NCBI GenBank assembly: GCA_964371195.1
Contig: CAYJLD010000002.1
Location: 159 to 64,158 of the forward strand
From: an uncultured Desulfovibrionaceae bacterium
GTDB lineage: Bacteria; Desulfobacterota; Desulfovibrionia; Desulfovibrionales; Desulfovibrionaceae
Length of the DNA: 64,000 nt
Reading direction: 5' to 3'
The notes beneath the pieces were generated by a model that was given only the letters and a program-made list of their open reading frames with translations, was not told the DNA's origin and ran no database searches. Of this stretch, positions 1,324 through 13,464 are shown one piece after another. Each line of letters starts with the position of its first letter. Position 1 is the stretch's first letter. A program made the translations under genes and the position numbers.

Positions 1324-2757
1324 ATGTTAAAAAAAATACGTCCAATTTTATGTTTTTTATTTGTTCTTTTTATTGCAGTGCCGTGCTTTGCAGCTGCTGA
1401 TAAATCTAAAGACAGAATGTGGGGTAATGGTAAAGCCAGTGGTGTTCCTTATGAACTTAAAGAACAAAATCCTACTGCAGGCCATGTTACTACCATGTCT
1501 GAAACTGTAAACTCTGTTATCAGGACTCATAAGTCTTTAAAGGCCATTCAAGAAAACAGAGTCACTGCCCAACAAGAACTCACTCGCTCCAAAGCAGGCT
1601 ATGGTCCACGCTTGGATTTGACAGCCAGCGGGGGCATGAGCAACTTAAGTGACTCTAGCACTCGCGCGTTAAATAAGCAAAGTAATTTCTATGGTGTAGG
1701 TCAAGTACAACTTTTACTTACCCAACCTATTTGGGATGGCTTTGCCACACGTAGCCGTGTACGTGCAAGCCAAGGCGTACTTGATTCAACCACTAGTCGT
1801 GTTATTGATAATGCAACAACACTTGCGCTTGATGGTATCATTGCACACGTTGACCTTATTTGGCGTCGCATAACTGTAGACTTATCTCAAGACAATGTAG
1901 CAACTCACGAAAGAATATTATCCCTCACACGTGACCGCGAAGCAACTGGTGCAGATACAATTGCCAACGTAACTCAAACTCAAGGTCGTTTAATTAATGC
2001 TTTGAGCACACTAGAAGACTCAAAAGCTTCACTTATTCAAGGTGAAGACTCTTATACACGCCTTACAGAGTTACCAGTTCCAACATCACTTGGTCCTATT
2101 AAACAACCTATAAAGATGTTTTCTAGCCCACAAGAAATTATTGACTATGCTAAAACTAATAATCCCAAAATTATTGCATACCTAGCAGATGTTCGTACAG
2201 CACAAGCTAACAAAGAACTCACTGAATCTGCATTTTATCCAACCATCAATATTGAAGCTGGACCAAGCTTTTCTACAACTGGTTACAGAAACACCGATAG
2301 TGAAGATTATTGGACTTCAGGCATGGACGTTTTTGGAACTATGCGTTGGAACTTATTTAACAGCGGTGCAGACTTAGCTGGAAGCAAAGCAGATGCTGCA
2401 CGTGTGCGTGAAGCTAGATATACTGCCAATAGTTTCCTTGATGATCTAACTCTACAAATTAATAATTCCTGGACTGACTACCAAACAGCTGTAACTCAGC
2501 TTTCTTATCACTTAGAAGCCATCGGTTACAACATACAAACTCGTGACTTATATATGGAGCAATTCCTCATTGGGCAACGTACACTATTAGACGTACTTGA
2601 TGCTGAAAGTGAATTATATAACTCTGAAATTCAAGCTGTTACTGCCCGTGCCAACATCATTATTAGTGCCTATACACTATATGCATTAGCTGGCATGCTT
2701 CTTCCTGAGCTGCAAATCCCAGCAGAACAAGTATTAGTGGTACCTGCTGCTCAATAA
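1324..2757 (+). CDS. TolC-family outer-membrane channel of a type I secretion system (LapE-like)
   Basis: 477 aa with a signal peptide (LFIAVPCFAAAD). Two-repeat TolC-like sequence with long helical segments (LLLTQPIWDGFATRSRVRASQ, WNLFNSGADLAGSKADAARVREA). Sits directly upstream of the ABC and HlyD genes. Confidence 0.85.
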   Translation: MLKKIRPILCFLFVLFIAVPCFAAADKSKDRMWGNGKASGVPYELKEQNPTAGHVTTMSETVNSVIRTHKSLKAIQENRVTAQQELTRSKAGYGPRLDLTASGGMSNLSDSSTRALNKQSNFYGVGQVQLLLTQPIWDGFATRSRVRASQGVLDSTTSRVIDNATTLALDGIIAHVDLIWRRITVDLSQDNVATHERILSLTRDREATGADTIANVTQTQGRLINALSTLEDSKASLIQGEDSYTRLTELPVPTSLGPIKQPIKMFSSPQEIIDYAKTNNPKIIAYLADVRTAQANKELTESAFYPTINIEAGPSFSTTGYRNTDSEDYWTSGMDVFGTMRWNLFNSGADLAGSKADAARVREARYTANSFLDDLTLQINNSWTDYQTAVTQLSYHLEAIGYNIQTRDLYMEQFLIGQRTLLDVLDAESELYNSEIQAVTARANIIISAYTLYALAGMLLPELQIPAEQVLVVPAAQ

Positions 2758-3069: not shown

Positions 3070-3098
3070 TTGACAGACATAGATTTTATTCTTATCTT
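3070..3098 (+). promoter_or_regulatory. candidate sigma70-type promoter for the ABC-HlyD-receptor operon
   Basis: TTGACA (3070..3075), a 17-nt spacer, then TATCTT (3093..3098). It lies about 38 nt upstream of ATG 3136, which has a GAGG 7 nt upstream. AT-rich context, so a chance match is possible. Confidence 0.3.
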
Positions 3099-3135
3099 TG
3101 ATACACAAGACAACCTTTACGCACGAGGCAGATTT

Positions 3136-5898
3136 ATGTCTAAAGACGATGCTAACAATGCGCAAAAGGATTTGAATTCTAAAAATAGCAATAATCAAAG
3201 TCCTTCTGTATTTGATGATATTTTTAATTCACAAACCGTAACAGACAATATACCTACAAACCTAGCTAAGAATGCAACAGAAAATGTAGCAAATATTGCT
3301 AAAAGTAAAGTGGGAGTTAGATCAACTCCACTTGCACCAATTGCAAGCTCAGATCTACAAGGGGCACAAAGCATAATGTCAAATAATAAAAAAATAAATA
3401 ATACACCAGCACCAGCGTCAAACGATGCAAATGCCACAACTAGTGCTAAAAACCAAGCACAGCCTGTAGTAAATAATACTCAAGCTGAAGCTGCTTCTAG
3501 CTCGGTTGAACAAAGTAAGTCTGAGCAAAATGTGCCTACAGCAGCGCCTAAGGACACTTTGCAAACTACTTCTGCCTCTAAGGTACCGCAAGTAGACCAA
3601 GGCTCACAACCAAGTCCTACACCTAATGCGAATGAGCCAAGCCAAGATGAACAAAAAGAAGCGGCTGCTAATCCAAACCTAACACCTAAGGATAGTGAAG
3701 GGTTTGCACAATTATCTCCATCCGAAGTGGACTTTATACCACCTTTATTGCGTAGTTTAAGTACCTTAATGCGCTTACGTGGTAAAAACATTTCACCACA
3801 ATTCTTATATGCTGGCCTTGCTGGAGTAGGTGAAGTAACACCAGGTGAATGCATGCGTGCAGCAGCTCGTGTAGGTCTACAGGCGCGCATTATTCCACGT
3901 AACAGCATACAAGACATCTCTCCCATGACCCTGCCTTGTGTTTTACTTTTGCAAAATGGGCGTTCATGTGTACTGACAGCCTTTAAGCGTCAAGTGGCCA
4001 CGGTTATATTTCCAGAATCTGGTGAAGAGCCATATCAAGTTAATATTGATACATTAAACAAAGATTACACTGGATATGCAGCTTTTGGTTCCATAGAAAA
4101 AAAGGCTGACAGACGTATTGATACATTTAGACATGAAGGTGGAAAACGGTGGTTTTGGGATGCCATTAAGCACTATGGACCAATTTATCGCCATGCTGCT
4201 TTTGCTAGTGTGATAATTAACCTTATTGCGCTTGGTAGTCCATTATTCGTCATGAATGTTTATGACCGTGTTGTACCTAACCATGCTTTAGAGACCCTAT
4301 GGGTTTTAGCTTTAGGTATAACTCTTGCGTATTTATTTGACTTTTTATTAAGAACATTACGCAATTACTTTGTTGATACTGCTGGTCGTAATGCTGACGT
4401 AGTAATTTCTAGTATGCTAGTTGATAAAGTTCTAACCATGCAGCTTGATCACAAACCAGAATCCACAGGGGCACTTGTTAATAATGTGCGTGAATTTGAG
4501 GCCTTGCGTGAGTTTTTTAGCTCATCAACTCTACTTTCATGCATAGACCTACCCTTCTTGGTATTATTCTTACTCTGCCTAAGCTTTATTGGTGGACCGT
4601 TAGTTCTTTTACCTCTCATAGCCATGCCCATTATGTTTGGGGCTGGATTTATCTTACAATCTTTAGCCAAACGAGCGGCCGAAAAAAGCTATGCCCAAAG
4701 TATGCATAAAAATGCCCTACTGACTGAAATGGTAAATGGACTTGAAACCCTAAAGTGTTGTCAAGGTGAAAACCGTATGCAACGTGTGTGGGAGACAGTG
4801 GTAGAAAACTCCGCACAAGCCAATGCTGAAACCAAGAAATATGGTTCATTAGCTGTTGGATTTTCAGTATTTATTACTCAATTTGTTACTGTTGGCATGG
4901 TGGTTTGGGGTGTATATTTAATTTCTGAAGGCACTTTAACCATGGGTGGCCTTATTGGTAGTAATATTTTAGCTGGTCGTGCCATGGCTCCTTTAATGCA
5001 AATGGCAGGACTTATTACACGTTACCAAAATTCACGCATTTCGCTTGACGCTTTAAATATGCTTATGGCTCTGCCTTCAGAAGATAGACAAGCCCAAGCT
5101 ACTGTGGACTTTGGCCCCTTGCAACCATCGTTTACCTTTGAAAATGTAAGTTTTGCCTATCCTAACTCAGCGCGTACCGCCGTTGACAACCTATCCTTAC
5201 ACATAGAACCAGGTGAAAAAGTTGGTGTTATTGGGCGTATGGGCTCAGGTAAATCTACATTAATACGCTTACTTATTGGCTTATATCAACCCAAGGATGG
5301 TGCAGTAAAATTTGGTGGGGTTGATATTCGTCAGCTAGCTGGTGCAGATTTACGTGCAAGAGTTGGTTTTGCCCCGCAAGATACTGTACTTTTTTATGGT
5401 AGTATACGCGACAATATTGTACTTGGAGATCCAAGTGTAAACGATTTACGTACTATTAGAGCGGCCAATTTATCTGGGGTAATTGAATTTGTGCGCACCA
5501 ACCCTGAAGGCTTTGGGGCACAAGTTGGAGAGCAAGGTAAATCCCTTTCAGGTGGTCAACGTCAAGCAATTGGTTTAGCAAGAGCCCTTGTGCGTGACCC
5601 AGAAGTGCTTATATTAGATGAACCAACAAGTAATATGGATACATCTTCTGAACAAGCCGTGCAATCACGCCTTATGAAGATAATGAAATATAAAACTTTG
5701 ATACTTGTAACCCACCGCATGAGCATGCTTAAAATGGTGGACAGACTAATTGTTATGGATCAAGGGCGTATTGTTGCTGATGGTCCCAAGGACGAAGTTA
5801 TACAAAAATTACGCTCAGCAATTCCACAAGCTGCTAGGCAAAATGCAGAGGTTAGTGACTTAACTGCACAAGCAGCAAAGGTAGCACAAAATAGCTAA
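3136..5898 (+). CDS. type I secretion ABC permease/ATPase (LapB/LssB type) with a Cys-less C39-like domain and a long low-complexity N-terminal extension
   Basis: Walker A GRMGSGKST, signature LSGGQRQ, Walker B VLILDEPTS, H-loop LVTHR. TM region FASVIINLIALGSPLFVMNVYDRV. The C39-like segment (LPCVLLLQNGRSCVLT) shows no catalytic Cys motif. The ORF track starts at TTG 3070; ATG 3136 has the better RBS and promoter geometry. Confidence 0.9.
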   Translation: MSKDDANNAQKDLNSKNSNNQSPSVFDDIFNSQTVTDNIPTNLAKNATENVANIAKSKVGVRSTPLAPIASSDLQGAQSIMSNNKKINNTPAPASNDANATTSAKNQAQPVVNNTQAEAASSSVEQSKSEQNVPTAAPKDTLQTTSASKVPQVDQGSQPSPTPNANEPSQDEQKEAAANPNLTPKDSEGFAQLSPSEVDFIPPLLRSLSTLMRLRGKNISPQFLYAGLAGVGEVTPGECMRAAARVGLQARIIPRNSIQDISPMTLPCVLLLQNGRSCVLTAFKRQVATVIFPESGEEPYQVNIDTLNKDYTGYAAFGSIEKKADRRIDTFRHEGGKRWFWDAIKHYGPIYRHAAFASVIINLIALGSPLFVMNVYDRVVPNHALETLWVLALGITLAYLFDFLLRTLRNYFVDTAGRNADVVISSMLVDKVLTMQLDHKPESTGALVNNVREFEALREFFSSSTLLSCIDLPFLVLFLLCLSFIGGPLVLLPLIAMPIMFGAGFILQSLAKRAAEKSYAQSMHKNALLTEMVNGLETLKCCQGENRMQRVWETVVENSAQANAETKKYGSLAVGFSVFITQFVTVGMVVWGVYLISEGTLTMGGLIGSNILAGRAMAPLMQMAGLITRYQNSRISLDALNMLMALPSEDRQAQATVDFGPLQPSFTFENVSFAYPNSARTAVDNLSLHIEPGEKVGVIGRMGSGKSTLIRLLIGLYQPKDGAVKFGGVDIRQLAGADLRARVGFAPQDTVLFYGSIRDNIVLGDPSVNDLRTIRAANLSGVIEFVRTNPEGFGAQVGEQGKSLSGGQRQAIGLARALVRDPEVLILDEPTSNMDTSSEQAVQSRLMKIMKYKTLILVTHRMSMLKMVDRLIVMDQGRIVADGPKDEVIQKLRSAIPQAARQNAEVSDLTAQAAKVAQNS

Positions 5899-5914: not shown

Positions 5915-7339
5915 ATGCAAAATAATCAAAATGGAGGCTTTTTTTCGGGCCTTAGAAACTTTATACAAATGCTTAAGGATGGCGCGTCATCAACAAATTT
6001 TGACCAAGATAATCAACGCCAAAAACTTGATACTTCTGAGCTAGCCTATGCCGATGTGGTGGAAGCAGCTATGCAGCGTAAACCCACTATGCAAGCGCGC
6101 TTATTATCACTTGCTACAGGACTTTTTATTGCTATATTCATTGCTTGGGCAGCTTGGGCAGAGGTAGACGAAGTAACGCGTGCTGAAGGTAAGGTTATTG
6201 CTTCACAACGCACGCAGATTATTCAAAACCTTGAGGGTGGTATCTTGCAAGATATTTTGGTGCGTGAAGGTCAAATCATCACCAAGGGCACACCATTAGC
6301 CCGTATTGATAACGAAATGGCAGCCAGTACTTATAGAGATGCACTTAGCAAATCGCTTGAACATACAGCTGCAATTATACGCCTAGAATCAGAGCTTACA
6401 GACGTTGAGCCAGTTTATCCTGAAGAAATTGTTCGTGATGCTCCGCAGGTTATTGCAGACCAAAATTCAGCCCTTGCTGCACGTAAACTACAACGTGATA
6501 GTGAAATTATTGTATTAAAATCTCAATATGAGCAACGCCTTCAAGAGGTTGAAGAACAACAAGCTCGTAAACGCTCAGTTGACCGTAATTTAGCTTTAGC
6601 CATTGAGCAACGTAATACTGTATTGCCACTACTTAAGCGTAAGAATTATTCACGCATTGAATTCTTAAATTTGGAACAAGAAGTTGCCAATCTTGAGGGT
6701 GAGCTTGAAGGGCTGACTGTATCTATACCCAAGGCTCAAGCTGCCGCTGATGAAGCTTTGCAACGTATTGCTTTTCGTGAGGCTGAACTTGACACAGCCA
6801 TTACCGAAGAGATTAATGAGCGCCGTGCTGAGCTCAATTCACTAAAAGAAACTATTTCGGCCGGTAGTGACCGTGTCACTCGTACTGTAGTGCGCTCGCC
6901 AGTCAATGGTACAATACAACAAATTCATCTTAACACTCTTGGCGGTGTTGTAAAACCTGGTGAAGCCATAATGGAAGTTGTGCCTATTGATGATACACTA
7001 TTAGTGGAAGTTAGAGTGCGCCCCTCAGATGTTGCTTTTTTACACCCAGACCAAAAAGCTATGCTCAAATTTTCCGCCTATGACTTTGGTGTTTATGGTG
7101 GGCTTGATGGTGTTCTTGAACAAATAAGTGCTGATACTATTGAAGATAAACAAGGTGAGGTTTTTTATCTTGCCAAGTTACGTACTAATAAAACCGGAAT
7201 TACACATCGGGGAGAAATCTTACCTATTATTCCAGGTATGACTGCAACAGCAGACATTCTCACCGGACGTAAGACCATTCTCGATTATATACTAAAACCC
7301 ATTCTCAAAGCACAACAAAACGCACTACGCGAAAGGTAG
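5915..7339 (+). CDS. HlyD-family type I secretion periplasmic adaptor (LapC-like)
   Basis: Single N-terminal TM (LLSLATGLFIAIFIAWAAWA), a long coiled-coil middle, and the C-terminal signature ILPIIPGMTATADILTGRKTILDYILKP. A 16-nt gap separates it from the ABC gene. Confidence 0.9.
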   Translation: MQNNQNGGFFSGLRNFIQMLKDGASSTNFDQDNQRQKLDTSELAYADVVEAAMQRKPTMQARLLSLATGLFIAIFIAWAAWAEVDEVTRAEGKVIASQRTQIIQNLEGGILQDILVREGQIITKGTPLARIDNEMAASTYRDALSKSLEHTAAIIRLESELTDVEPVYPEEIVRDAPQVIADQNSALAARKLQRDSEIIVLKSQYEQRLQEVEEQQARKRSVDRNLALAIEQRNTVLPLLKRKNYSRIEFLNLEQEVANLEGELEGLTVSIPKAQAAADEALQRIAFREAELDTAITEEINERRAELNSLKETISAGSDRVTRTVVRSPVNGTIQQIHLNTLGGVVKPGEAIMEVVPIDDTLLVEVRVRPSDVAFLHPDQKAMLKFSAYDFGVYGGLDGVLEQISADTIEDKQGEVFYLAKLRTNKTGITHRGEILPIIPGMTATADILTGRKTILDYILKPILKAQQNALRER

Positions 7340-7345
7340 AATGGT

Positions 7346-9418
7346 ATGCGCCAAAATAAGTCTGGCAAAAAAGTTCATTATCGTAGCTTTTGGCTACTTG
7401 GTTTATTAATGGTAGCTCTACTCGGTGTTACCTCCATGTTTGCAATGTACACCACAAATTATGTGGCACAAAGCATGGAGCAAAACCTTGCTATTACCCT
7501 AACATCTAATGCCAAGGGTAAGACTGAAGCTATTAACTTGTGGCTTACAACTATTGACCAAGACACAAAACGTTTTGTGGATCGTGATATGATTCGCTTG
7601 TTTTGTGCTGAGTCAGTATTAAAAGCTCAAGGTAGTGCTACATCCACTCAGCTAGGGCAAATGGAAGCATTGCAAGAAGATACTGGAAAACTTGAAAATA
7701 TTCGTGACCTTATCATTCAGCAGCTCATGACATTTATTGAAACTACAAGCTTTACTGCTGGAGGTATTTGGGATGCTAACTTAAAGAGTTTACTTTTTAC
7801 CAATGGTTTAGAGGAAACTCTTTCAGAAGAACAAAAAGTACTAGTTGAGCAAACCTTAAATACTGGTGAAGTTACATTTTCTAATGTGCATGATGGATTA
7901 GCTGGGCTTATGATTACTATGGTCTATCCCATATTCCCACCAGAATACACTGAACTTCCAAAAGAAAGAGCTGTTGCTACCTTGCTACTTGAAATACCTC
8001 TTGAAGCTCCCATATCTAAAATATTTAAAGGTGCAGAAGATAAAAATCAAGAGGCAACACCATATCGCCTATTCCAATGGACTGCACAAAGTAGTGCTTT
8101 ACAGTTCATTAATTTAGAAACAGGTCAACTGATCACTTTTGATGAGTGGAAAACCCCAAAAAACGAAGAACTGCCTATTATGAAGCGCGTACTGCCAGAC
8201 GGTAGTTTTGTTTACTCTCTTGGTATACCAATAGCCAATAAAAATCTATTGGTTAGTAGCGAAGAACCTGCTCACATTGCAGAAGACTTTTATGCTAATT
8301 TCCGTAACTTTATGATTATATTTGTGGCAGGGGCCATCATAGTTACTGGCCTTTTACTTTGGGCTTGTTGGTGGTTCTTTGTGGGAAGGTATGAGCGTAA
8401 GGTTGAAGCCAGCATGCGTAAGCTCAATGAAGACGTGAATACGCAGCAACAAATTATTGATAGTATTAATGCTACTCTGACTGACGGTGTTGTTTTAACA
8501 GATACACTGGGTAATATTATATATTCCAATGCAAGTTTTGCTAAAATGGTCTATCATGAAAATAGTGATGACATTGTTGGATTTAAGATGGGTAGCATAC
8601 TTAATCCAGATGCGGCTGAAATGCTCCAAAATCACCTCGATAGAGTGGTTAGATCTGAAAAAGATCATGATTTTGAAGAAAAACTTACCATACAAGGCAA
8701 GGATGTGTATTGGCAAGCAATATACAGTCCATACTTTGGAGATCACGAACATGTAAGTGGTGTAGTTGCTGTTTACCGCGATACAACAAAGATGGTGGAA
8801 GAACGTGAAGCCGAACAAGCCAGAATTGAGCAACTAATTCAAGTACTAACCATGTCGGTTGGCTTGGTAAACCCATATCTTAGAGGTCACTCCATGCATA
8901 TGGGAGAGTTGGCAGAAAACATTGCTAAACTCATGGAATGCACTAAGGAAGAGCAAAAAACCATTGGCATGGCTGCTGCGTTAAGCCAAATGGGTATGAT
9001 TAGTTTACCTAAAGAAATTATTAATAAAAAAGGTGCACTAACAGATGAAGAACGTGAAATCATGAAAACTCACGTTTCAAAAACATGTGATATGCTAGCT
9101 GACTTTGACTTTGGCCTCCCAGTACAAGAAACCATACTTCAAATGAATGAAAACATGGATGGTAGCGGATATCCACGTCAATTAAAAGGCGATCAAATTA
9201 GCATGAATGCGCGTATCTTACACTTAGCAAACTCATTTTGCGCCATTTTGCGCCCAAGAGTATATAGGCAAGCTAGAAGCTTAAGCGATACCATAGCAAT
9301 TCTCGACAAAGAACAAAATATTTACGATTTCGAAGTATTGAAAATGTTAAAGGTATTTGTCATAAGCCCAGAAGGAAAAGTTTTTGTAAATAAATTACAA
9401 CGTAAACACGCAAAGTAA
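7346..9418 (+). CDS. transmembrane receptor: TM - periplasmic domain - TM - PAS - degenerate HD-GYP (LapD-analogue candidate, paralog 1)
   Basis: TM1 FWLLGLLMVALLGVTSMFAMY and TM2 FMIIFVAGAIIVTGLLLWACWWFFVG. PAS-like segment IIDSINATLTDGVVLTDTLGNIIYSNASFAKMV. HD-GYP-like C-terminus with AAALSQMGMISLP (HD replaced by SQ) and QMNENMDGSGYP (HHE lost, GYP kept). Confidence 0.7.
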   Translation: MRQNKSGKKVHYRSFWLLGLLMVALLGVTSMFAMYTTNYVAQSMEQNLAITLTSNAKGKTEAINLWLTTIDQDTKRFVDRDMIRLFCAESVLKAQGSATSTQLGQMEALQEDTGKLENIRDLIIQQLMTFIETTSFTAGGIWDANLKSLLFTNGLEETLSEEQKVLVEQTLNTGEVTFSNVHDGLAGLMITMVYPIFPPEYTELPKERAVATLLLEIPLEAPISKIFKGAEDKNQEATPYRLFQWTAQSSALQFINLETGQLITFDEWKTPKNEELPIMKRVLPDGSFVYSLGIPIANKNLLVSSEEPAHIAEDFYANFRNFMIIFVAGAIIVTGLLLWACWWFFVGRYERKVEASMRKLNEDVNTQQQIIDSINATLTDGVVLTDTLGNIIYSNASFAKMVYHENSDDIVGFKMGSILNPDAAEMLQNHLDRVVRSEKDHDFEEKLTIQGKDVYWQAIYSPYFGDHEHVSGVVAVYRDTTKMVEEREAEQARIEQLIQVLTMSVGLVNPYLRGHSMHMGELAENIAKLMECTKEEQKTIGMAAALSQMGMISLPKEIINKKGALTDEEREIMKTHVSKTCDMLADFDFGLPVQETILQMNENMDGSGYPRQLKGDQISMNARILHLANSFCAILRPRVYRQARSLSDTIAILDKEQNIYDFEVLKMLKVFVISPEGKVFVNKLQRKHAK

Positions 9419-9430
9419 TAGGGGAATGAT

Positions 9431-10645
9431 ATGAAGATTATATTTTTGCCTCAGCATTTTCCAGGGCCTTTTCGCTATACAGCTGCAAGACTTGCAGCAG
9501 ATAAAAGCAATAAAGTTATTTTTATAACTGACCGTTCGCGCCGTGATGTGCGTATACCTGGAGTTAGGCGAATTCTTATATCAATTCCTCAAGGACCACA
9601 TATTGCTGATCGCGCTGAACATGAAGCTGTGCGCTCCATTAAAAGAGGAACACAAATTGCTAATGCCTTGCTACACCTAAAAAACACAGGGTTCATACCG
9701 GATATTATAATAGGTAATGCCGGATATGGTTGCAGTCTTTATGCTAAGGACATTTTTCCTGATGCTTTTTTAGCTATCTATGCCGATGGCTATCAAGGTA
9801 GCAGTAGTATGTTAACCACCTTAAAGCCACGCCATGCCTATCCAACAGTTAACTTTTCCCCTGAGCGTGTGCGTAATTTATTTCAATGGGATGCTTTTAA
9901 TGATTGCCAAATGGCTTTTACATCTACAAATTGGCAAAAATCTCTTTATCCAAAATCGCTAACCAAGCAAATTCAAGTGCTACACGAAGGCATTGATACA
10001 CAATTTTTTAGCCCAAAACCAGGACAAAAATTTTGTATAGAAGGTTGTGATTTATCTCATGTTGATGAACTTGTAACCTTTTCTGGGCGCAGTATTGATA
10101 CTAGACGTAACTTCCCACAATTTTTACATAGTATACCTCAAATACTTATAGAAAGACCAAATTGCCATGTGGTAGTTATGGCAGGTTCGCAAGAAAGAGA
10201 ATCAGCAATTGACGCATCTTGGTCAGAATTATTATTTAATAAATATGATGTAGATAAAAATCGTGTGCACTTTCTTAGCTTTAGACCATATAAAGATTAT
10301 CGAATGATGCTTCAAGCTTCTTCTGTGCACGTATTCTTATCCACACCAAACGCACTTTCCACAGGACTTTTTGAAGCCATGAGTTGCGGTTGCCTTGTAA
10401 TTGCTGGGGATACTGACCCAGTGCGTGAAGTCATAGAGCATGGGCGTAATGGATTTTTATATGATATTTGGAATGCTGAATCCTTGACCCAAACTATTAT
10501 TGGAGTGTTAAGCGCATATAAACGCATGGAAACATTGCGTGATCTTGCACGTCAAGAAATGTGCAAATCATATGATTCACATACGCAAACCGAACACAAT
10601 GTTCAAAGCATTTTACAAAACTATGCTAAATGGAAAAAAAAGTAA
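9431..10645 (+). CDS. GT4-family (GT-B) glycosyltransferase
   Basis: C-terminal GT1/GT4 signature FEAMSCGCLVIAGDTDPVREVIEHGRNGFL (E-x7-E-type motif). 404 aa. Confidence 0.8.
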   Translation: MKIIFLPQHFPGPFRYTAARLAADKSNKVIFITDRSRRDVRIPGVRRILISIPQGPHIADRAEHEAVRSIKRGTQIANALLHLKNTGFIPDIIIGNAGYGCSLYAKDIFPDAFLAIYADGYQGSSSMLTTLKPRHAYPTVNFSPERVRNLFQWDAFNDCQMAFTSTNWQKSLYPKSLTKQIQVLHEGIDTQFFSPKPGQKFCIEGCDLSHVDELVTFSGRSIDTRRNFPQFLHSIPQILIERPNCHVVVMAGSQERESAIDASWSELLFNKYDVDKNRVHFLSFRPYKDYRMMLQASSVHVFLSTPNALSTGLFEAMSCGCLVIAGDTDPVREVIEHGRNGFLYDIWNAESLTQTIIGVLSAYKRMETLRDLARQEMCKSYDSHTQTEHNVQSILQNYAKWKKK

Positions 10646-10671: not shown

Positions 10672-11355
10672 ATGCATCATATAGCCCTAATGCAAACAAA
10701 ATTAGTGCCGAAGAGCTTGCTAATCCTTATTGCCATGAGCATGTTTTTTTTCATGTCTTCATGGCATATGGCGTATGGTGCGGAGGCAAAAAAAAGTGAT
10801 CGGGTAAAACTTTTTGGTTCCATTGAGTTTAGAGGTACATTAAAAGGCCTACCTCAATGGTTAAAGGTTCAAGATAAGCATAACAAAAATGACATACTTC
10901 AAAATGGTGTAAAACTTAATGCTGGAACAACTTGGGAAGGATTAAAAGCAAAGGTTGAAGGAAAACCATTAATAGAGCAAATAAAAATTGTAAATTCCTT
11001 TTGGAATCAATGGCCTTATAAGCAGGATTCCGCACTTTATAAAGCTCCGGACTATTGGGCTGCACCATATGAATTTAGAAAACGGTCCGGAGATTGCGAA
11101 GACTATGCTATTACTAAATATTTTACCCTGCGCGCTCTAGGAGTGCCCATGGAAAAATTACGAATAGTAGTTGTTAAAGACTCAATTTTAAATCTTGCTC
11201 ATGCCATCCTTGCTGTCTATATTGATGGAGATGCATATATATTGGATAATCTTTCAAGAAACGTACTTTCTCATACGAGAATACGCAACTATATACCTCA
11301 ATATTCTGTCAATGAAAAGAATAGATGGATGCATGTAATGCCCAAAAAAAAATAA
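10672..11355 (+). CDS. periplasmic bacterial transglutaminase-like cysteine protease (BTLCP, LapG family)
   Basis: Signal/TM LLILIAMSMFFFMSSWHMAYGA. Candidate C-H-D triad: SGDCEDYAITKY (Cys codon 11095..11097), LAHAILAVY, AYILDN. The 227-aa size is typical for LapG. Confidence 0.85.
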   Translation: MHHIALMQTKLVPKSLLILIAMSMFFFMSSWHMAYGAEAKKSDRVKLFGSIEFRGTLKGLPQWLKVQDKHNKNDILQNGVKLNAGTTWEGLKAKVEGKPLIEQIKIVNSFWNQWPYKQDSALYKAPDYWAAPYEFRKRSGDCEDYAITKYFTLRALGVPMEKLRIVVVKDSILNLAHAILAVYIDGDAYILDNLSRNVLSHTRIRNYIPQYSVNEKNRWMHVMPKKK

Positions 11356-13464
11356 ATGGAGATGGCTATGTACGAAGAACATAACGACTTACTTTCAAAT
11401 GATACCCAAAGTAGTAAGAAAAAATCACGACTGGCTCTTTTTGTGGGTGTAGTTTTAGTTTTTTGTGGTGTAACAGCCCTTATTTGTCATACTTTTTATA
11501 GCGCACAAAAAAATGATATATTAGCCACTCAAGAAGAACGCCTCATGCTCACTGCTGAAGCAGCTATGGAAAGTATACGCCTTTGGGGAGTAAGCCTTGA
11601 TAGTCAAGCACGCCGTGTTAGCGAGTCAGAATTATACCGCATGTTTGCTCAAGATATTGCGCAAGTTGATGAGCAAAAAGCTGGTATGCTAAATGACCCA
11701 AATGCTACTAATATACTTGATGAAGACATAGCTTTTTTGGCCGAACAAATACCAATGATGCGTACCATCTTATTAGATTTTATGAATTATAATGGACTTC
11801 AAGATGCAAGACTTGTAAGCCCAGATGGCAAAACATTACTTTCATCCTTAGCAAGGCCAATACCTATTCAAGAAGAGCAAGCTAATGCAGTGCGTAAAGC
11901 TGCTGAAACAAATAAAACTACTTATGCCCCTATTCGCCCATCTTCTACCGGACTAGTGCTAGACTACGCTACTCCATTATTACCAGCCATGCTAAGTGAT
12001 GAAAAAGCAAAGCCTGTGGGTGCATTTTTGCTTAGTGTTCCTGTTACAGGGCAAATTGCAAACTTTACCTCTCGCGGCTCTGGTGCATCACATCGAGAAA
12101 TACAAAGTAATATATTACAATATGATGGAAAGCAGTGGGAAGTTATACGTCCAGATAGCACCCAATCTATTCCAGCTGATTTTAAACTTAATGCGGACAC
12201 AAAGTCCATACCCTTTGCTAAACGTATTGATGTAAGTGGCAAAGAAGAAGTTTATTCTGCAGGTATCTTAGTGCCTAATATTGGTTGGTTAGTAGTAGAA
12301 GAGTTACCAGCTAGCATTGTTGATACACAATTAAATCGAGCTTTTAATCTAGTATATGGAGCTGGGGCATTTTTATGTTTAAGTGTATTGCTTATGTTAG
12401 CTTTAGTTTGGTGGATAATGATTGGGCGTGAACAGCGCAGTGTTGCACAAAAATTTAGACAACTATATCAAGTAATCAGACAACAAAAACATTTATTGGA
12501 CAGCATTAATATTTCTCTTGATGTAGGACTTATGATGGTTGATGTTAGCGGAAAATTACATCTTGTAAATCGTGCTTTTGCGCTCATTGTTGGCAAAAAA
12601 GAAGATGAGTTACAAGGTCAAAATCTGCACAGTATTATGCCTGACAATGTGGCCTTGCAAGTACAAGAAGCTGTAGCTAGTGTATCTAATAGCAATGAAT
12701 CTAAAAGCATTGAGATTAAATTAACCCTACAAGGTGAAGAAAGACTGTTTCGCGCAACTCTATTCCCCTTTGAAGATAAAGAAGATGGAAGCACCAGTGC
12801 CGCTGTTATAACCATTCAAGATATTACTGAATTCCGTAGAAGTAGTGAGAAGCGTAATAAGCAACAAATGAGTACCATTGAGGCATTGGTAAGCACCATT
12901 GAGCGTGTTGACCCATATTTAGCAGGTCACTCCACTTTGATGCGACGCCTTGCTGAGCTAGTAGCCGATAACATGAACCTTGACCCCAAGGATAAGGACA
13001 CCATCACTACGGCTGCTGTATTATCACAAATTGGTAGAATATTTGTTCCGCGTGACTTGCTTGCAAAAACCGATAAGCTAACCCCAGAAGAACAAGCTGA
13101 AATAGCTAAAATTCCTGAATATGCTTACAACATTCTTAGCACCATTGATTTTGGCAATCCAGTTCCAGCGGCTGTGGTGCAAATGAATGAAAAACTAGAC
13201 GGTTCCGGCACACCACACCATTTATCAGGCGACGCCATATCGTTGCATGGGCGCATTCTTGGTGTTATTAACACCTTCTGCGCCATGGCAAGCCCACGCG
13301 CTTTCCGAGCAGGATTGCCCATGGACGTAGCCCTTGGTATACTGCGCAAGGATAACCAAGCTTATGACCAACAAATTGTTGAAAATTTAGCAACTGTGCT
13401 TACCAGCTCCCAAGGTGCTGAAGCCATAGCCGCACGCCTTGCAGAAGTAACAGCTGAAAAATAA
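11356..13464 (+). CDS. transmembrane receptor: TM - periplasmic domain - TM - PAS - degenerate HD-GYP (LapD-analogue candidate, paralog 2)
   Basis: Same architecture as 7346..9418: TM1 LALFVGVVLVFCGVTALICHTF, TM2 GAGAFLCLSVLLMLALVWWIMIG, PAS LLDSINISLDVGLMMVDVSGKLHLVNRAFALIV. Degenerate motifs are AAVLSQIGRIFVP and QMNEKLDGSGTP. The ATG abuts the protease stop (TAAATG). Confidence 0.7.
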   Translation: MEMAMYEEHNDLLSNDTQSSKKKSRLALFVGVVLVFCGVTALICHTFYSAQKNDILATQEERLMLTAEAAMESIRLWGVSLDSQARRVSESELYRMFAQDIAQVDEQKAGMLNDPNATNILDEDIAFLAEQIPMMRTILLDFMNYNGLQDARLVSPDGKTLLSSLARPIPIQEEQANAVRKAAETNKTTYAPIRPSSTGLVLDYATPLLPAMLSDEKAKPVGAFLLSVPVTGQIANFTSRGSGASHREIQSNILQYDGKQWEVIRPDSTQSIPADFKLNADTKSIPFAKRIDVSGKEEVYSAGILVPNIGWLVVEELPASIVDTQLNRAFNLVYGAGAFLCLSVLLMLALVWWIMIGREQRSVAQKFRQLYQVIRQQKHLLDSINISLDVGLMMVDVSGKLHLVNRAFALIVGKKEDELQGQNLHSIMPDNVALQVQEAVASVSNSNESKSIEIKLTLQGEERLFRATLFPFEDKEDGSTSAAVITIQDITEFRRSSEKRNKQQMSTIEALVSTIERVDPYLAGHSTLMRRLAELVADNMNLDPKDKDTITTAAVLSQIGRIFVPRDLLAKTDKLTPEEQAEIAKIPEYAYNILSTIDFGNPVPAAVVQMNEKLDGSGTPHHLSGDAISLHGRILGVINTFCAMASPRAFRAGLPMDVALGILRKDNQAYDQQIVENLATVLTSSQGAEAIAARLAEVTAEK

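What the first reader, a model, noticed from the sequence alone, without database searches (positions are those of the whole stretch)
8984..9175. Receptor paralog 1: HD-GYP domain has lost its metal-ligand residues but keeps GYP
Canonical HD-GYP phosphodiesterases carry an ..LHDIGK.. block and an HHE..DG.GYP block that supply the metal ligands. Here the aligned positions read AAALSQMGMISLP (HD -> SQ, codons 8984..8989) and LQMNENMDGSGYP (HHE -> MNE, GSGYP retained, 9140..9175). The leading H..RV-type histidine context reads GHSMHMGEL. This looks like a pseudo-enzyme retained as a ligand or partner-binding module, analogous to the dead EAL domain of LapD.
Basis: partly seen in the sequence, partly recalled or inferred. 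Interest (0 to 1): 0.6.

Follow-up and report, generated by a model that had tools for sequence, protein, structure and literature searches.

The report
Dead HD-GYP c-di-GMP receptor, DvhD family

Summary
ORF 7346..9418 (690 aa) has an HD-GYP domain (Pfam HD_5, E 8.5e-44). In it, HD reads SQ (8984-8989) and HH reads MN (within 9140-9175), while DG.GYP is kept. Only 2 of the 8 PmGH metal ligands survive.

This is not new. The best PDB matches, by sequence and by fold, are the three crystal structures of D. vulgaris DvhD (9RBZ, 9RC0, 9RC2). DvhD carries the same SQ and MN substitutions. It binds c-di-GMP at about 0.1-0.3 uM, does not hydrolyse it, and controls the LapG-like protease DvhG.

The window is a Desulfovibrionaceae MAG with the full system:
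- TolC-ABC-HlyD secretion genes
- receptor 1
- a GT4 glycosyltransferase
- the DvhG protease
- receptor 2

LapA-like adhesins with a PAAG cleavage site lie elsewhere in the genome. Receptor 1 keeps 7 of DvhD's 9 canonical c-di-GMP contact residues and has conservative changes at the other two. Its HD-GYP domain is under strong purifying selection (omega about 0.02).

The modestly new part is that receptor 1 belongs to a sister branch of characterised DvhD. In 7 genera this branch is followed by a GT4 gene. Receptor 2 falls on the branch that holds characterised DvhD.

Verdict: a new member of a known kind, of low to moderate interest.

The parts
1324..2757 (+). TolC-like outer-membrane component of the type I secretion system
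   Evidence: Pfam OEP, E 1.8e-45. Position conserved in relatives.
3070..5898 (+). Type I secretion ABC permease/ATPase (LssB/LapB type) with an N-terminal extension of about 220 aa
   Evidence: NCBIfam TIGR03375, E 2.9e-270, over residues 225-916. Pfam ABC_membrane and ABC_tran.
5915..7339 (+). HlyD-family membrane fusion protein
   Evidence: Pfam HlyD_3, E 5e-18.
7346..9418 (+). Receptor paralog 1 ('D1'), a DvhD-family receptor with the layout TM, dCache, TM, PAS, degenerate HD-GYP (690 aa). This is the gene that holds the finding.
   Evidence: BLASTP against DvhD (L058): 29% identity over 700 columns, E 1e-88. AF2 model pLDDT 84.8. Foldseek top hits are 9RC0, 9RBZ and 9RC2.
7451..8305 (+). 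Periplasmic dCache-like domain (residues about 36-320) between two transmembrane helices
   Evidence: The AF2 model shows the secondary structure. Foldseek hit to the DvhD periplasmic domain 9RC2: E 3.2e-15, TM-score 0.79 normalised to the target. Pfam finds no domain here.
8468..8791 (+). Cytoplasmic PAS domain (residues 375-482)
   Evidence: Pfam PAS_4, E 2.7e-13.
8852..9337 (+). Degenerate HD-GYP domain (residues 503-664)
   Evidence: Pfam HD_5, E 8.5e-44. 9RBZ, E 4.6e-42, ungapped over 204 aa. omega about 0.02 against the closest relative.
8984..8989 (+). S547-Q548 in place of the HD metal ligands
   Evidence: DvhD has the same SQ (PMC13090378).
9140..9175 (+). QMNENMDGSGYP: M600-N601 replace the HH ligands; E602, D605 and G608-Y609-P610 are retained
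9431..10645 (+). GT4 glycosyltransferase, the conserved downstream partner of D1-type receptors
   Evidence: Pfam Glyco_trans_4_3 (E 6.9e-34) plus Glycos_transf_1. It lies directly downstream of 21 of the 22 D1-type genes examined, across 7 genera.
10672..11355 (+). DvhG/LapG-like BTLCP cysteine protease with a signal-peptide-like N-terminus and a D-C-E calcium/catalytic motif
   Evidence: Pfam Peptidase_C93, E 2.1e-19. NCBIfam LapG, E 4.7e-32 but below the curated cutoff. The sequence contains GDCEDY.
11356..13464 (+). Receptor paralog 2 ('D2'). It falls in the branch that holds characterised DvhD. It has SQ and MNE but GTP instead of GYP.
   Evidence: BLASTP against DvhD: 33% identity, E 1e-111. 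9RBZ, E 5.5e-49. Tree. Residue map.

Best explanation
ORF 7346..9418 encodes a DvhD-family inner-membrane receptor for c-di-GMP. Its HD-GYP domain is a pseudo-enzyme. Six of the eight metal ligands are replaced (HD to SQ, HH to MN, E to Y, D to N), so it cannot build the di- or tri-metal centre needed for hydrolysis. The residues that hold c-di-GMP in the DvhD crystal structure are retained.

By analogy with DvhD, c-di-GMP binding at the canonical site, probably with a bridging site at the dimer interface (P555), would splay the stalk helices between PAS and HD-GYP. That change would pass through the membrane to the periplasmic dCache domain. The dCache domain would then restrain the BTLCP protease encoded two genes downstream (10672..11355). 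At high c-di-GMP, the type-I-secreted adhesins with an N-terminal retention domain and a PAAG site stay on the cell surface. At low c-di-GMP, they are cleaved and released.

What is shown here: homology, architecture, loss of ligands, conservation of contact residues, purifying selection, and the operon context. What is inferred: binding, lack of hydrolysis, and control of the protease by this particular paralog.
For: 1. The HD-GYP domain is real and its ligands are lost.
2. The best sequence hits in the PDB are DvhD 9RBZ and 9RC0 (E 4.6e-42, ungapped over 204 aa).
3. The protein is colinear with DVU1020 over its full length (29% identity, E 1e-88).
4. The AF2 model (pLDDT 84.8) has 9RC0, 9RBZ (TM-score 0.87-0.89 normalised to the target) and 9RC2 (TM-score 0.79) as its top Foldseek hits, covering all three soluble domains.
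5. The nine canonical-site c-di-GMP contacts named in PMC13090378 map as follows: Y523 to Y511, L577 to L565, K582 to R570, Y621 to Y609, M646 to I634, R650 to R638, Y652 to Y640, E668 to E656. The bridging-site residue P567 maps to P555. Within 22 D1-type sequences, Y523, R582, Y621, R650 and P567 are invariant.
6. omega is 0.02-0.06 for the HD-GYP domain against the two closest relatives, the lowest of the three domains. dS is above 1, so these values are rough.
7. DvhD, with the same SQ/MN residues, binds c-di-GMP (Kd 99 nM and 322 nM), does not hydrolyse it, and regulates DvhG in a reconstituted system (PMC13090378, PMC10990149).
8. The operon runs TolC-ABC-HlyD-D1-GT4-DvhG-D2 with gaps of 6, 12, 26 and 0 nt between the last five genes. 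This order is conserved across the window's genus and one other.
9. The genome has 6 GGDEF matches. It also has adhesins with a retention domain followed by ELMPAAG (C74:4701-9110) and RTX repeats.
10. In genus g61, a D1-type receptor is the only copy and sits directly after the protease gene. So D1-type receptors are placed as the protease's partner there.
Against: No biochemistry exists for this protein or for any D1-type member. It is only 29% identical to DvhD overall.

The tree places it in the sister group of the branch that contains characterised DvhD. Paralog 2, not paralog 1, occupies the DvhD-like position directly downstream of the protease.

In three genera the T1SS-D1-GT4 block is unlinked from the protease-D2 pair. 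That would fit an output other than the protease.

The polar bridging-site residues of DvhD (K520, R569) are V508 and E557 here. They vary across the whole family.

E668, the guanine-specific contact, is kept in this protein but varies within the D1 group.
Confidence: 0.8

Rival explanations
1. Paralog 1 is a c-di-GMP-binding DvhD-like receptor, but its output is not the BTLCP protease. It acts instead on the type I secretion machinery or on the co-encoded GT4 glycosyltransferase, for example by coupling adhesin export or glycosylation to c-di-GMP. Paralog 2 would then be the protease regulator.
For: A GT4 gene lies directly downstream of 21 of 22 D1-type genes, across 7 genera. In genera g2, g58 and g68, T1SS-D1-GT4 and protease-D2 sit on different contigs or loci. 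D1 and D2 form separate groups with 99% SH-aLRT support. Paralog 2 and DvhD share the position immediately after the protease gene.
Against: In g61 a D1-type receptor is the only copy and follows the protease gene. Periplasmic positions such as W66, R84, P195, Q244, R281, Y290 and S291 are conserved across both groups, and the dCache fold matches 9RC2. Both points suggest the same periplasmic function. The GT4 is cytoplasmic, and no interaction is known.
Confidence: 0.15
2. The domain's physiological ligand is another nucleotide, such as 3'3'-cGAMP or pGpG, and not c-di-GMP.
For: [quoted passage not shown] The position equivalent to E668 varies within the D1 group.
Against: This protein keeps E656 (equivalent to E668) and all the phosphate and base contacts. 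The genome encodes GGDEF cyclases. DvhD prefers c-di-GMP about five-fold (PMC13090378). Hypr-type cyclases were not looked for.
Confidence: 0.05
3. The domain is still an active phosphodiesterase that uses a non-canonical or reduced metal site.
For: H515, H576, E602 and D605 remain. HD-GYP metal sites are known to be heterogeneous; PMC13090378 cites reviews on this.
Against: Six of the eight PmGH ligands are lost, including the HD dyad and both HH histidines. DvhD, with identical residues at these positions, is inactive with every ion tested, and its crystal structure shows no metal (PMC13090378).
Confidence: 0.03

Closest known systems
DvhD (DVU1020) of Desulfovibrio (Nitratidesulfovibrio) vulgaris Hildenborough; PDB 9RBZ, 9RC0, 9RC2; PMC10990149 and PMC13090378
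   Same: Same bacterial family (Desulfovibrionaceae). Same TM-dCache-TM-PAS-HD-GYP layout and similar length (690 vs 701 aa). The same HD-to-SQ and HH-to-MN substitutions with GYP retained. The c-di-GMP contact residues are conserved. It is encoded with a type I secretion system and a LapG-like BTLCP protease, and LapA-like adhesins with a [T/A/P]AAG site are present in the genome.
   Different: Only 29% identical overall, and about 39% in the HD-GYP domain by Foldseek. It belongs to a sister group (D1). It sits between HlyD and a GT4 glycosyltransferase, not directly after the protease gene. It coexists with a second, more DvhD-like paralog in the same operon. The DvhD bridging-site residues K520 and R569 are V and E here, and the Lys of the HDxGK-like motif (K563) is Met. 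The protease here has a signal peptide instead of DvhG's transmembrane anchor and long linker.
LapD of Pseudomonas fluorescens (GGDEF-EAL c-di-GMP receptor controlling LapG)
   Same: The functional logic is the same. An inner-membrane receptor with a catalytically dead c-di-GMP-metabolising domain signals inside-out to control a periplasmic BTLCP protease. That protease releases a type-I-secreted adhesin.
   Different: There is no sequence or domain homology. This protein has no LapD_MoxY_N, HAMP, GGDEF or EAL domain. It binds the nucleotide through HD-GYP, and its periplasmic module is a dCache domain.
Active HD-GYP phosphodiesterases: PmGH (4MCW), PA4781 (4R8Z), V-cGAP3 (5Z7C)
   Same: Same fold, and a retained DG.GYP loop.
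   Different: Six of the eight metal ligands are lost, so enzymatic activity is not expected.

Membership tests
DvhD-type c-di-GMP receptors | Full-length colinear homology to DVU1020 | tested here: met
   BLASTP: 29% identity, residues 13-684 aligned to 21-698, E 1e-88. L058 is the DvH chromosome: its length of 3,570,858 bp matches my recollection of the published DvH chromosome length, and the hit lies at 1.12 Mb.
DvhD-type c-di-GMP receptors | Architecture of TM, periplasmic dCache, TM, PAS, HD-GYP | tested here: met
   Pfam PAS and HD_5. AF2 model. Foldseek hits: 9RC2 with TM-score 0.79, 9RC0 with 0.72, 9RBZ with 0.87-0.89, all normalised to the target.
DvhD-type c-di-GMP receptors | HD replaced by SQ and HH replaced by MN, with GYP retained | tested here: met
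   S547-Q548, M600-N601 and G608-Y609-P610.
DvhD-type c-di-GMP receptors | Canonical-site c-di-GMP contact residues (Y523, L577, K582, Y621, M646, R650, Y652, E668) and bridging-site P567 | tested here: met
   Seven are identical, K to R and M to I are conservative changes, and P567 is kept. This was tested at the sequence level only.
DvhD-type c-di-GMP receptors | Encoded with a BTLCP (DvhG) protease and a type I secretion system | tested here: met
DvhD-type c-di-GMP receptors | Same orthologous branch as characterised DvhD | tested here: not met
   The tree separates a D1 group (this protein) from the D2 group holding DvH DvhD and paralog 2, with SH-aLRT 99. It is a paralogous subfamily within the family.
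DvhD-type c-di-GMP receptors | Measured sub-micromolar c-di-GMP binding, no hydrolysis, and c-di-GMP-dependent control of the protease | not testable with these tools
   This needs ITC, HPLC and reconstitution experiments.
Catalytically active HD-GYP phosphodiesterases | Complete set of His/Asp/Glu metal ligands (PmGH E185, H189, H221, D222, H250, H276, H277, D305) | tested here: not met
   Only the H189 and H250 equivalents remain.
Catalytically active HD-GYP phosphodiesterases | GYP loop | tested here: met
   DGSGYP at residues 605-610.
LapD family | LapD_MoxY_N periplasmic domain plus HAMP, GGDEF and EAL domains | tested here: not met
   None of these domains was found by the Pfam scan at E up to 0.1.

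The most novel reading that the evidence does not exclude
D1-type receptors (this gene) form an undescribed, GT4-glycosyltransferase-linked subfamily of DvhD-like receptors. In this genus they act alongside a second receptor whose nucleotide pocket is remodelled (GYP to GTP/GSP, Y652F, K582Q, H588I). One LapG-like protease, or adhesin export or glycosylation, would then be under dual control by two receptors with different ligand affinity or specificity.
Probability: 0.25. Interest if true: 0.55.

Novelty: new member of a known kind. Interest (0 to 1): 0.3.

Why it matters
The dead HD-GYP domain used as a c-di-GMP sensor is already an established, structurally solved mechanism (DvhD). This locus therefore mainly confirms how widespread and conserved that solution is: 168 of 301 sampled Desulfovibrionaceae genomes have a homolog, and the SQ/M.E/DG.GYP signature is nearly invariant.

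Its added value is comparative. About a fifth of the positive genomes (35 of 168) carry two receptor copies, including all 14 genomes of this genus. One branch is consistently tied to a GT4 glycosyltransferase, and neither DvhD paper discusses this. The second copy in this genus has changed several nucleotide-contact residues. That gives a natural test case for how c-di-GMP receptors split functions after duplication, and for whether adhesin glycosylation or export is linked to the switch.

Tried and rejected
1. Intact metal ligands elsewhere in the domain. Rejected: the alignment to 9RBZ is ungapped and those to four other solved HD-GYP structures have at most short gaps. All place SQ and MN at the ligand positions.
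2. A LapD-type receptor. Rejected: no LapD domains are present.
3. Degeneracy as a genome-wide or assembly artefact. Rejected: four other HD-GYP proteins in the same genome keep the HD motif and three keep HHE. The substitutions are also fixed across 57 homologs.
4. Paralog 1 as the direct ortholog of DvhD. Rejected by the tree and by gene order; paralog 2 is closer.
5. Assigning a specific function to the GT4. NCBIfam and PDB searches gave only generic, sub-threshold GT4 hits, and a literature search for PF12000 found nothing relevant.
6. Checking for alternative His/Asp clusters in 3D.
7. dN/dS for more distant pairs. Synonymous sites were saturated, so only the closest pairs are informative.

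Full report
**Observation.** The ORF at 7346..9418 (+) encodes a 690-aa protein. Bases 8984-8989 read AGC CAA, which is S547-Q548. Bases 9140-9175 read QMNENMDGSGYP. Pfam assigns residues 503-664 to HD_5, the HD-GYP type of HD domain, at E 8.5e-44 across almost the whole profile. Residues 375-482 are a PAS domain. HMMER alignments to the solved active enzymes PmGH (4MCW), V-cGAP3 (5Z7C) and PA4781 (4R8Z) each put SQ under their HD and MN under their HH.

I used PmGH's eight metal ligands as I recall them from Bellini et al. 2014, and checked the numbering against the 4MCW alignment. They map as E185 to Y511, H189 to H515, H221/D222 to S547/Q548, H250 to H576, H276/H277 to M600/N601, and D305 to N629. 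Two of eight remain.

Four other HD-GYP proteins in the same genome keep HD.G. Three of them keep HHE..DG.GYP, and the fourth (C16) reads HHHQRWDGKGYC. The degeneracy is therefore specific to this protein family.

**What it is.** The best PDB sequence hits are 9RBZ and 9RC0, annotated 'HD domain/sensory box protein', at E 4.6e-42 and ungapped over 204 residues. [quoted passage not shown] It reports that no metal is seen in the structure and that the domain fails to hydrolyse c-di-GMP with any ion. The domain binds c-di-GMP with Kd 99 nM, or 322 nM in PMC10990149. The dimer takes two canonical c-di-GMP molecules and one bridging molecule. DvhD controls the LapG-like protease DvhG in a reconstituted system.

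The window protein aligns colinearly with full-length DvhD at 29% identity and E 1e-88. An AF2 model built on a 57-sequence alignment has mean pLDDT 84.8. Its top Foldseek hits in the PDB are 9RC0, 9RBZ (TM-score 0.87-0.89 normalised to the target) and 9RC2, the DvhD periplasmic dCache domain (E 3.2e-15, TM-score 0.79). All three soluble domains match DvhD.

**Ligand site.** The c-di-GMP contacts named for DvhD map onto paralog 1 as follows:
- Y523 to Y511
- L577 to L565
- K582 to R570
- Y621 to Y609
- M646 to I634
- R650 to R638
- Y652 to Y640
- E668 to E656
- bridging-site P567 to P555

The weak polar bridging contacts K520 and R569 are V and E here, but they vary across the whole family. 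Nei-Gojobori omega for the HD-GYP domain is 0.02 against the closest relative and 0.06 against the next, the lowest of the three domains. dS exceeds 1, so these values are approximate. The dead domain is under strong constraint, as expected for a ligand-binding module.

**Context.** The window comes from a 2.27-Mb MAG with 39% GC. Its nearest relatives are titled 'uncultured Desulfovibrionaceae bacterium' and Mailhella.

The genes form a same-strand block:
- TolC (1324-2757)
- LssB-type ABC exporter (3070-5898)
- HlyD (5915-7339)
- receptor 1 (7346-9418)
- GT4 glycosyltransferase (9431-10645)
- BTLCP/LapG-like protease (10672-11355)
- receptor 2 (11356-13464)

The gaps between the last five genes are 6, 12, 26 and 0 nt.

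The genome has six GGDEF matches. It also has a second, orphan BTLCP gene on C43. Contig C74 carries two adhesins whose N-termini are a beta-rich retention-type domain. The first is followed by ELMPAAG and the second by DLMPALG, each before a Gly/Ser-rich linker. The complete adhesin has VCBS-like and RTX repeats. All parts of a Dvh/Lap-type adhesin-release system are therefore present.

**Family survey.** A six-frame search of 301 Desulfovibrionaceae genomes found homologs in 168 at E <= 1e-30. Of these, 35 had two or more matches, including all 14 genomes of the window's genus. I fetched 40 loci and classified their neighbours.
- DvH and most genera have T1SS, protease, receptor.
- The window's genus and g21 have T1SS, D1, GT4, protease, D2.
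- g2, g58 and g68 have T1SS-D1-GT4 and protease-D2 at separate places.
- g61 has T1SS, protease, D1-like, GT4 with a single receptor.

A maximum-likelihood tree of 57 receptors separates the GT4-linked D1 sequences from the D2 group with SH-aLRT 99. The D2 group contains DvH DvhD and paralog 2. Paralog 2 is also more similar to DvhD, at E 1e-111 and 33% identity and 9RBZ E 5.5e-49.

The SQ/M.E/DG.G.P signature is shared by both groups. The loss of catalysis therefore predates their split. The two DvhD papers do not mention paralogs or the glycosyltransferase in their main text. GT genes appear only in a supplementary neighbourhood table.

**Mechanism.** The best explanation is that paralog 1 works like DvhD. 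It binds c-di-GMP without turnover and changes conformation through the PAS-HD-GYP stalk. It signals inside-out to its dCache domain to restrain the protease, so that adhesins are retained at high c-di-GMP. Homology, architecture, ligand loss, contact conservation, selection and operon context are shown here. Binding, inactivity and protease control are inferred for this protein.

The main rival is that D1-type receptors have a different output, either the secretion system or the GT4. The tight D1-GT4 linkage and the unlinked arrangements in three genera support this. The g61 arrangement and the periplasmic residues conserved across both groups argue against it.

**Novelty and verdict.** The protein is a new member, from a paralogous GT4-linked subgroup, of a known kind. 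Earlier notes from this scan reached the same DvhD/DvhG identification at other loci. They are not independent evidence. Interest is low to moderate.

Noticed in passing
window 11356-13464 (paralog 2), especially 13180-13215: Paralog 2 has GTP instead of GYP (Y621 to T619). It also has Y652 to F650, K582 to Q580 and H588 to I586, which are changes in DvhD's c-di-GMP contacts. The Y-to-T/S change is shared by all 14 D2 copies of this genus plus g21, forming one clade and so probably one event. D2 copies in other genera keep GYP. This may mean altered ligand affinity or specificity.
   Followed up: partly
window 9431-10645: A GT4 glycosyltransferase (Glyco_trans_4_3 plus Glycos_transf_1) lies directly downstream of 21 of 22 D1-type receptor genes across 7 genera. 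No specific function could be assigned, and only generic GT4 hits were found.
   Followed up: partly
window 3070-5898: The LssB-type ABC exporter has an extension of about 220 aa before the region matched by TIGR03375 (residues 225-916). The length of the homolog ranges from about 710 to 1255 aa among relatives.
   Followed up: no
genome contig C74:4701-9110 and C74:9811-10860 (outside the window): Two tandem adhesin genes share an N-terminal retention-type domain. The first is followed by ELMPAAG and the second by DLMPALG. The first (1470 aa) has VCBS-like and RTX repeats, and the second runs off the contig. They are candidate protease substrates, and the Ala-Leu variant may not be cleavable.
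   Followed up: partly
genome contig C43:56-748 (outside the window): A second BTLCP protease with a signal peptide, 36% identical to the operon's protease, sits among housekeeping genes with no receptor or secretion genes nearby.
   Followed up: partly
genome contigs C69, C39, C14, C16 (outside the window): Four HD-GYP proteins that keep the HD motif. C69 (REC-HD-GYP), C39 (HD-[HD-GYP]-like) and C14 keep HHE..DG.GYP. C16 (metallo-beta-lactamase-like plus GAF plus HD-GYP) reads HHHQRWDGKGYC. The organism probably has active HD-GYP phosphodiesterases alongside the two dead receptors.
   Followed up: partly
window 7346-9418, residue 551: The Lys of the HDxGK-like motif (DvhD K563) is Met in 20 of 22 D1-type proteins, Arg in this genus's D2 copies, and Lys in most others. 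The significance is unknown.
   Followed up: no
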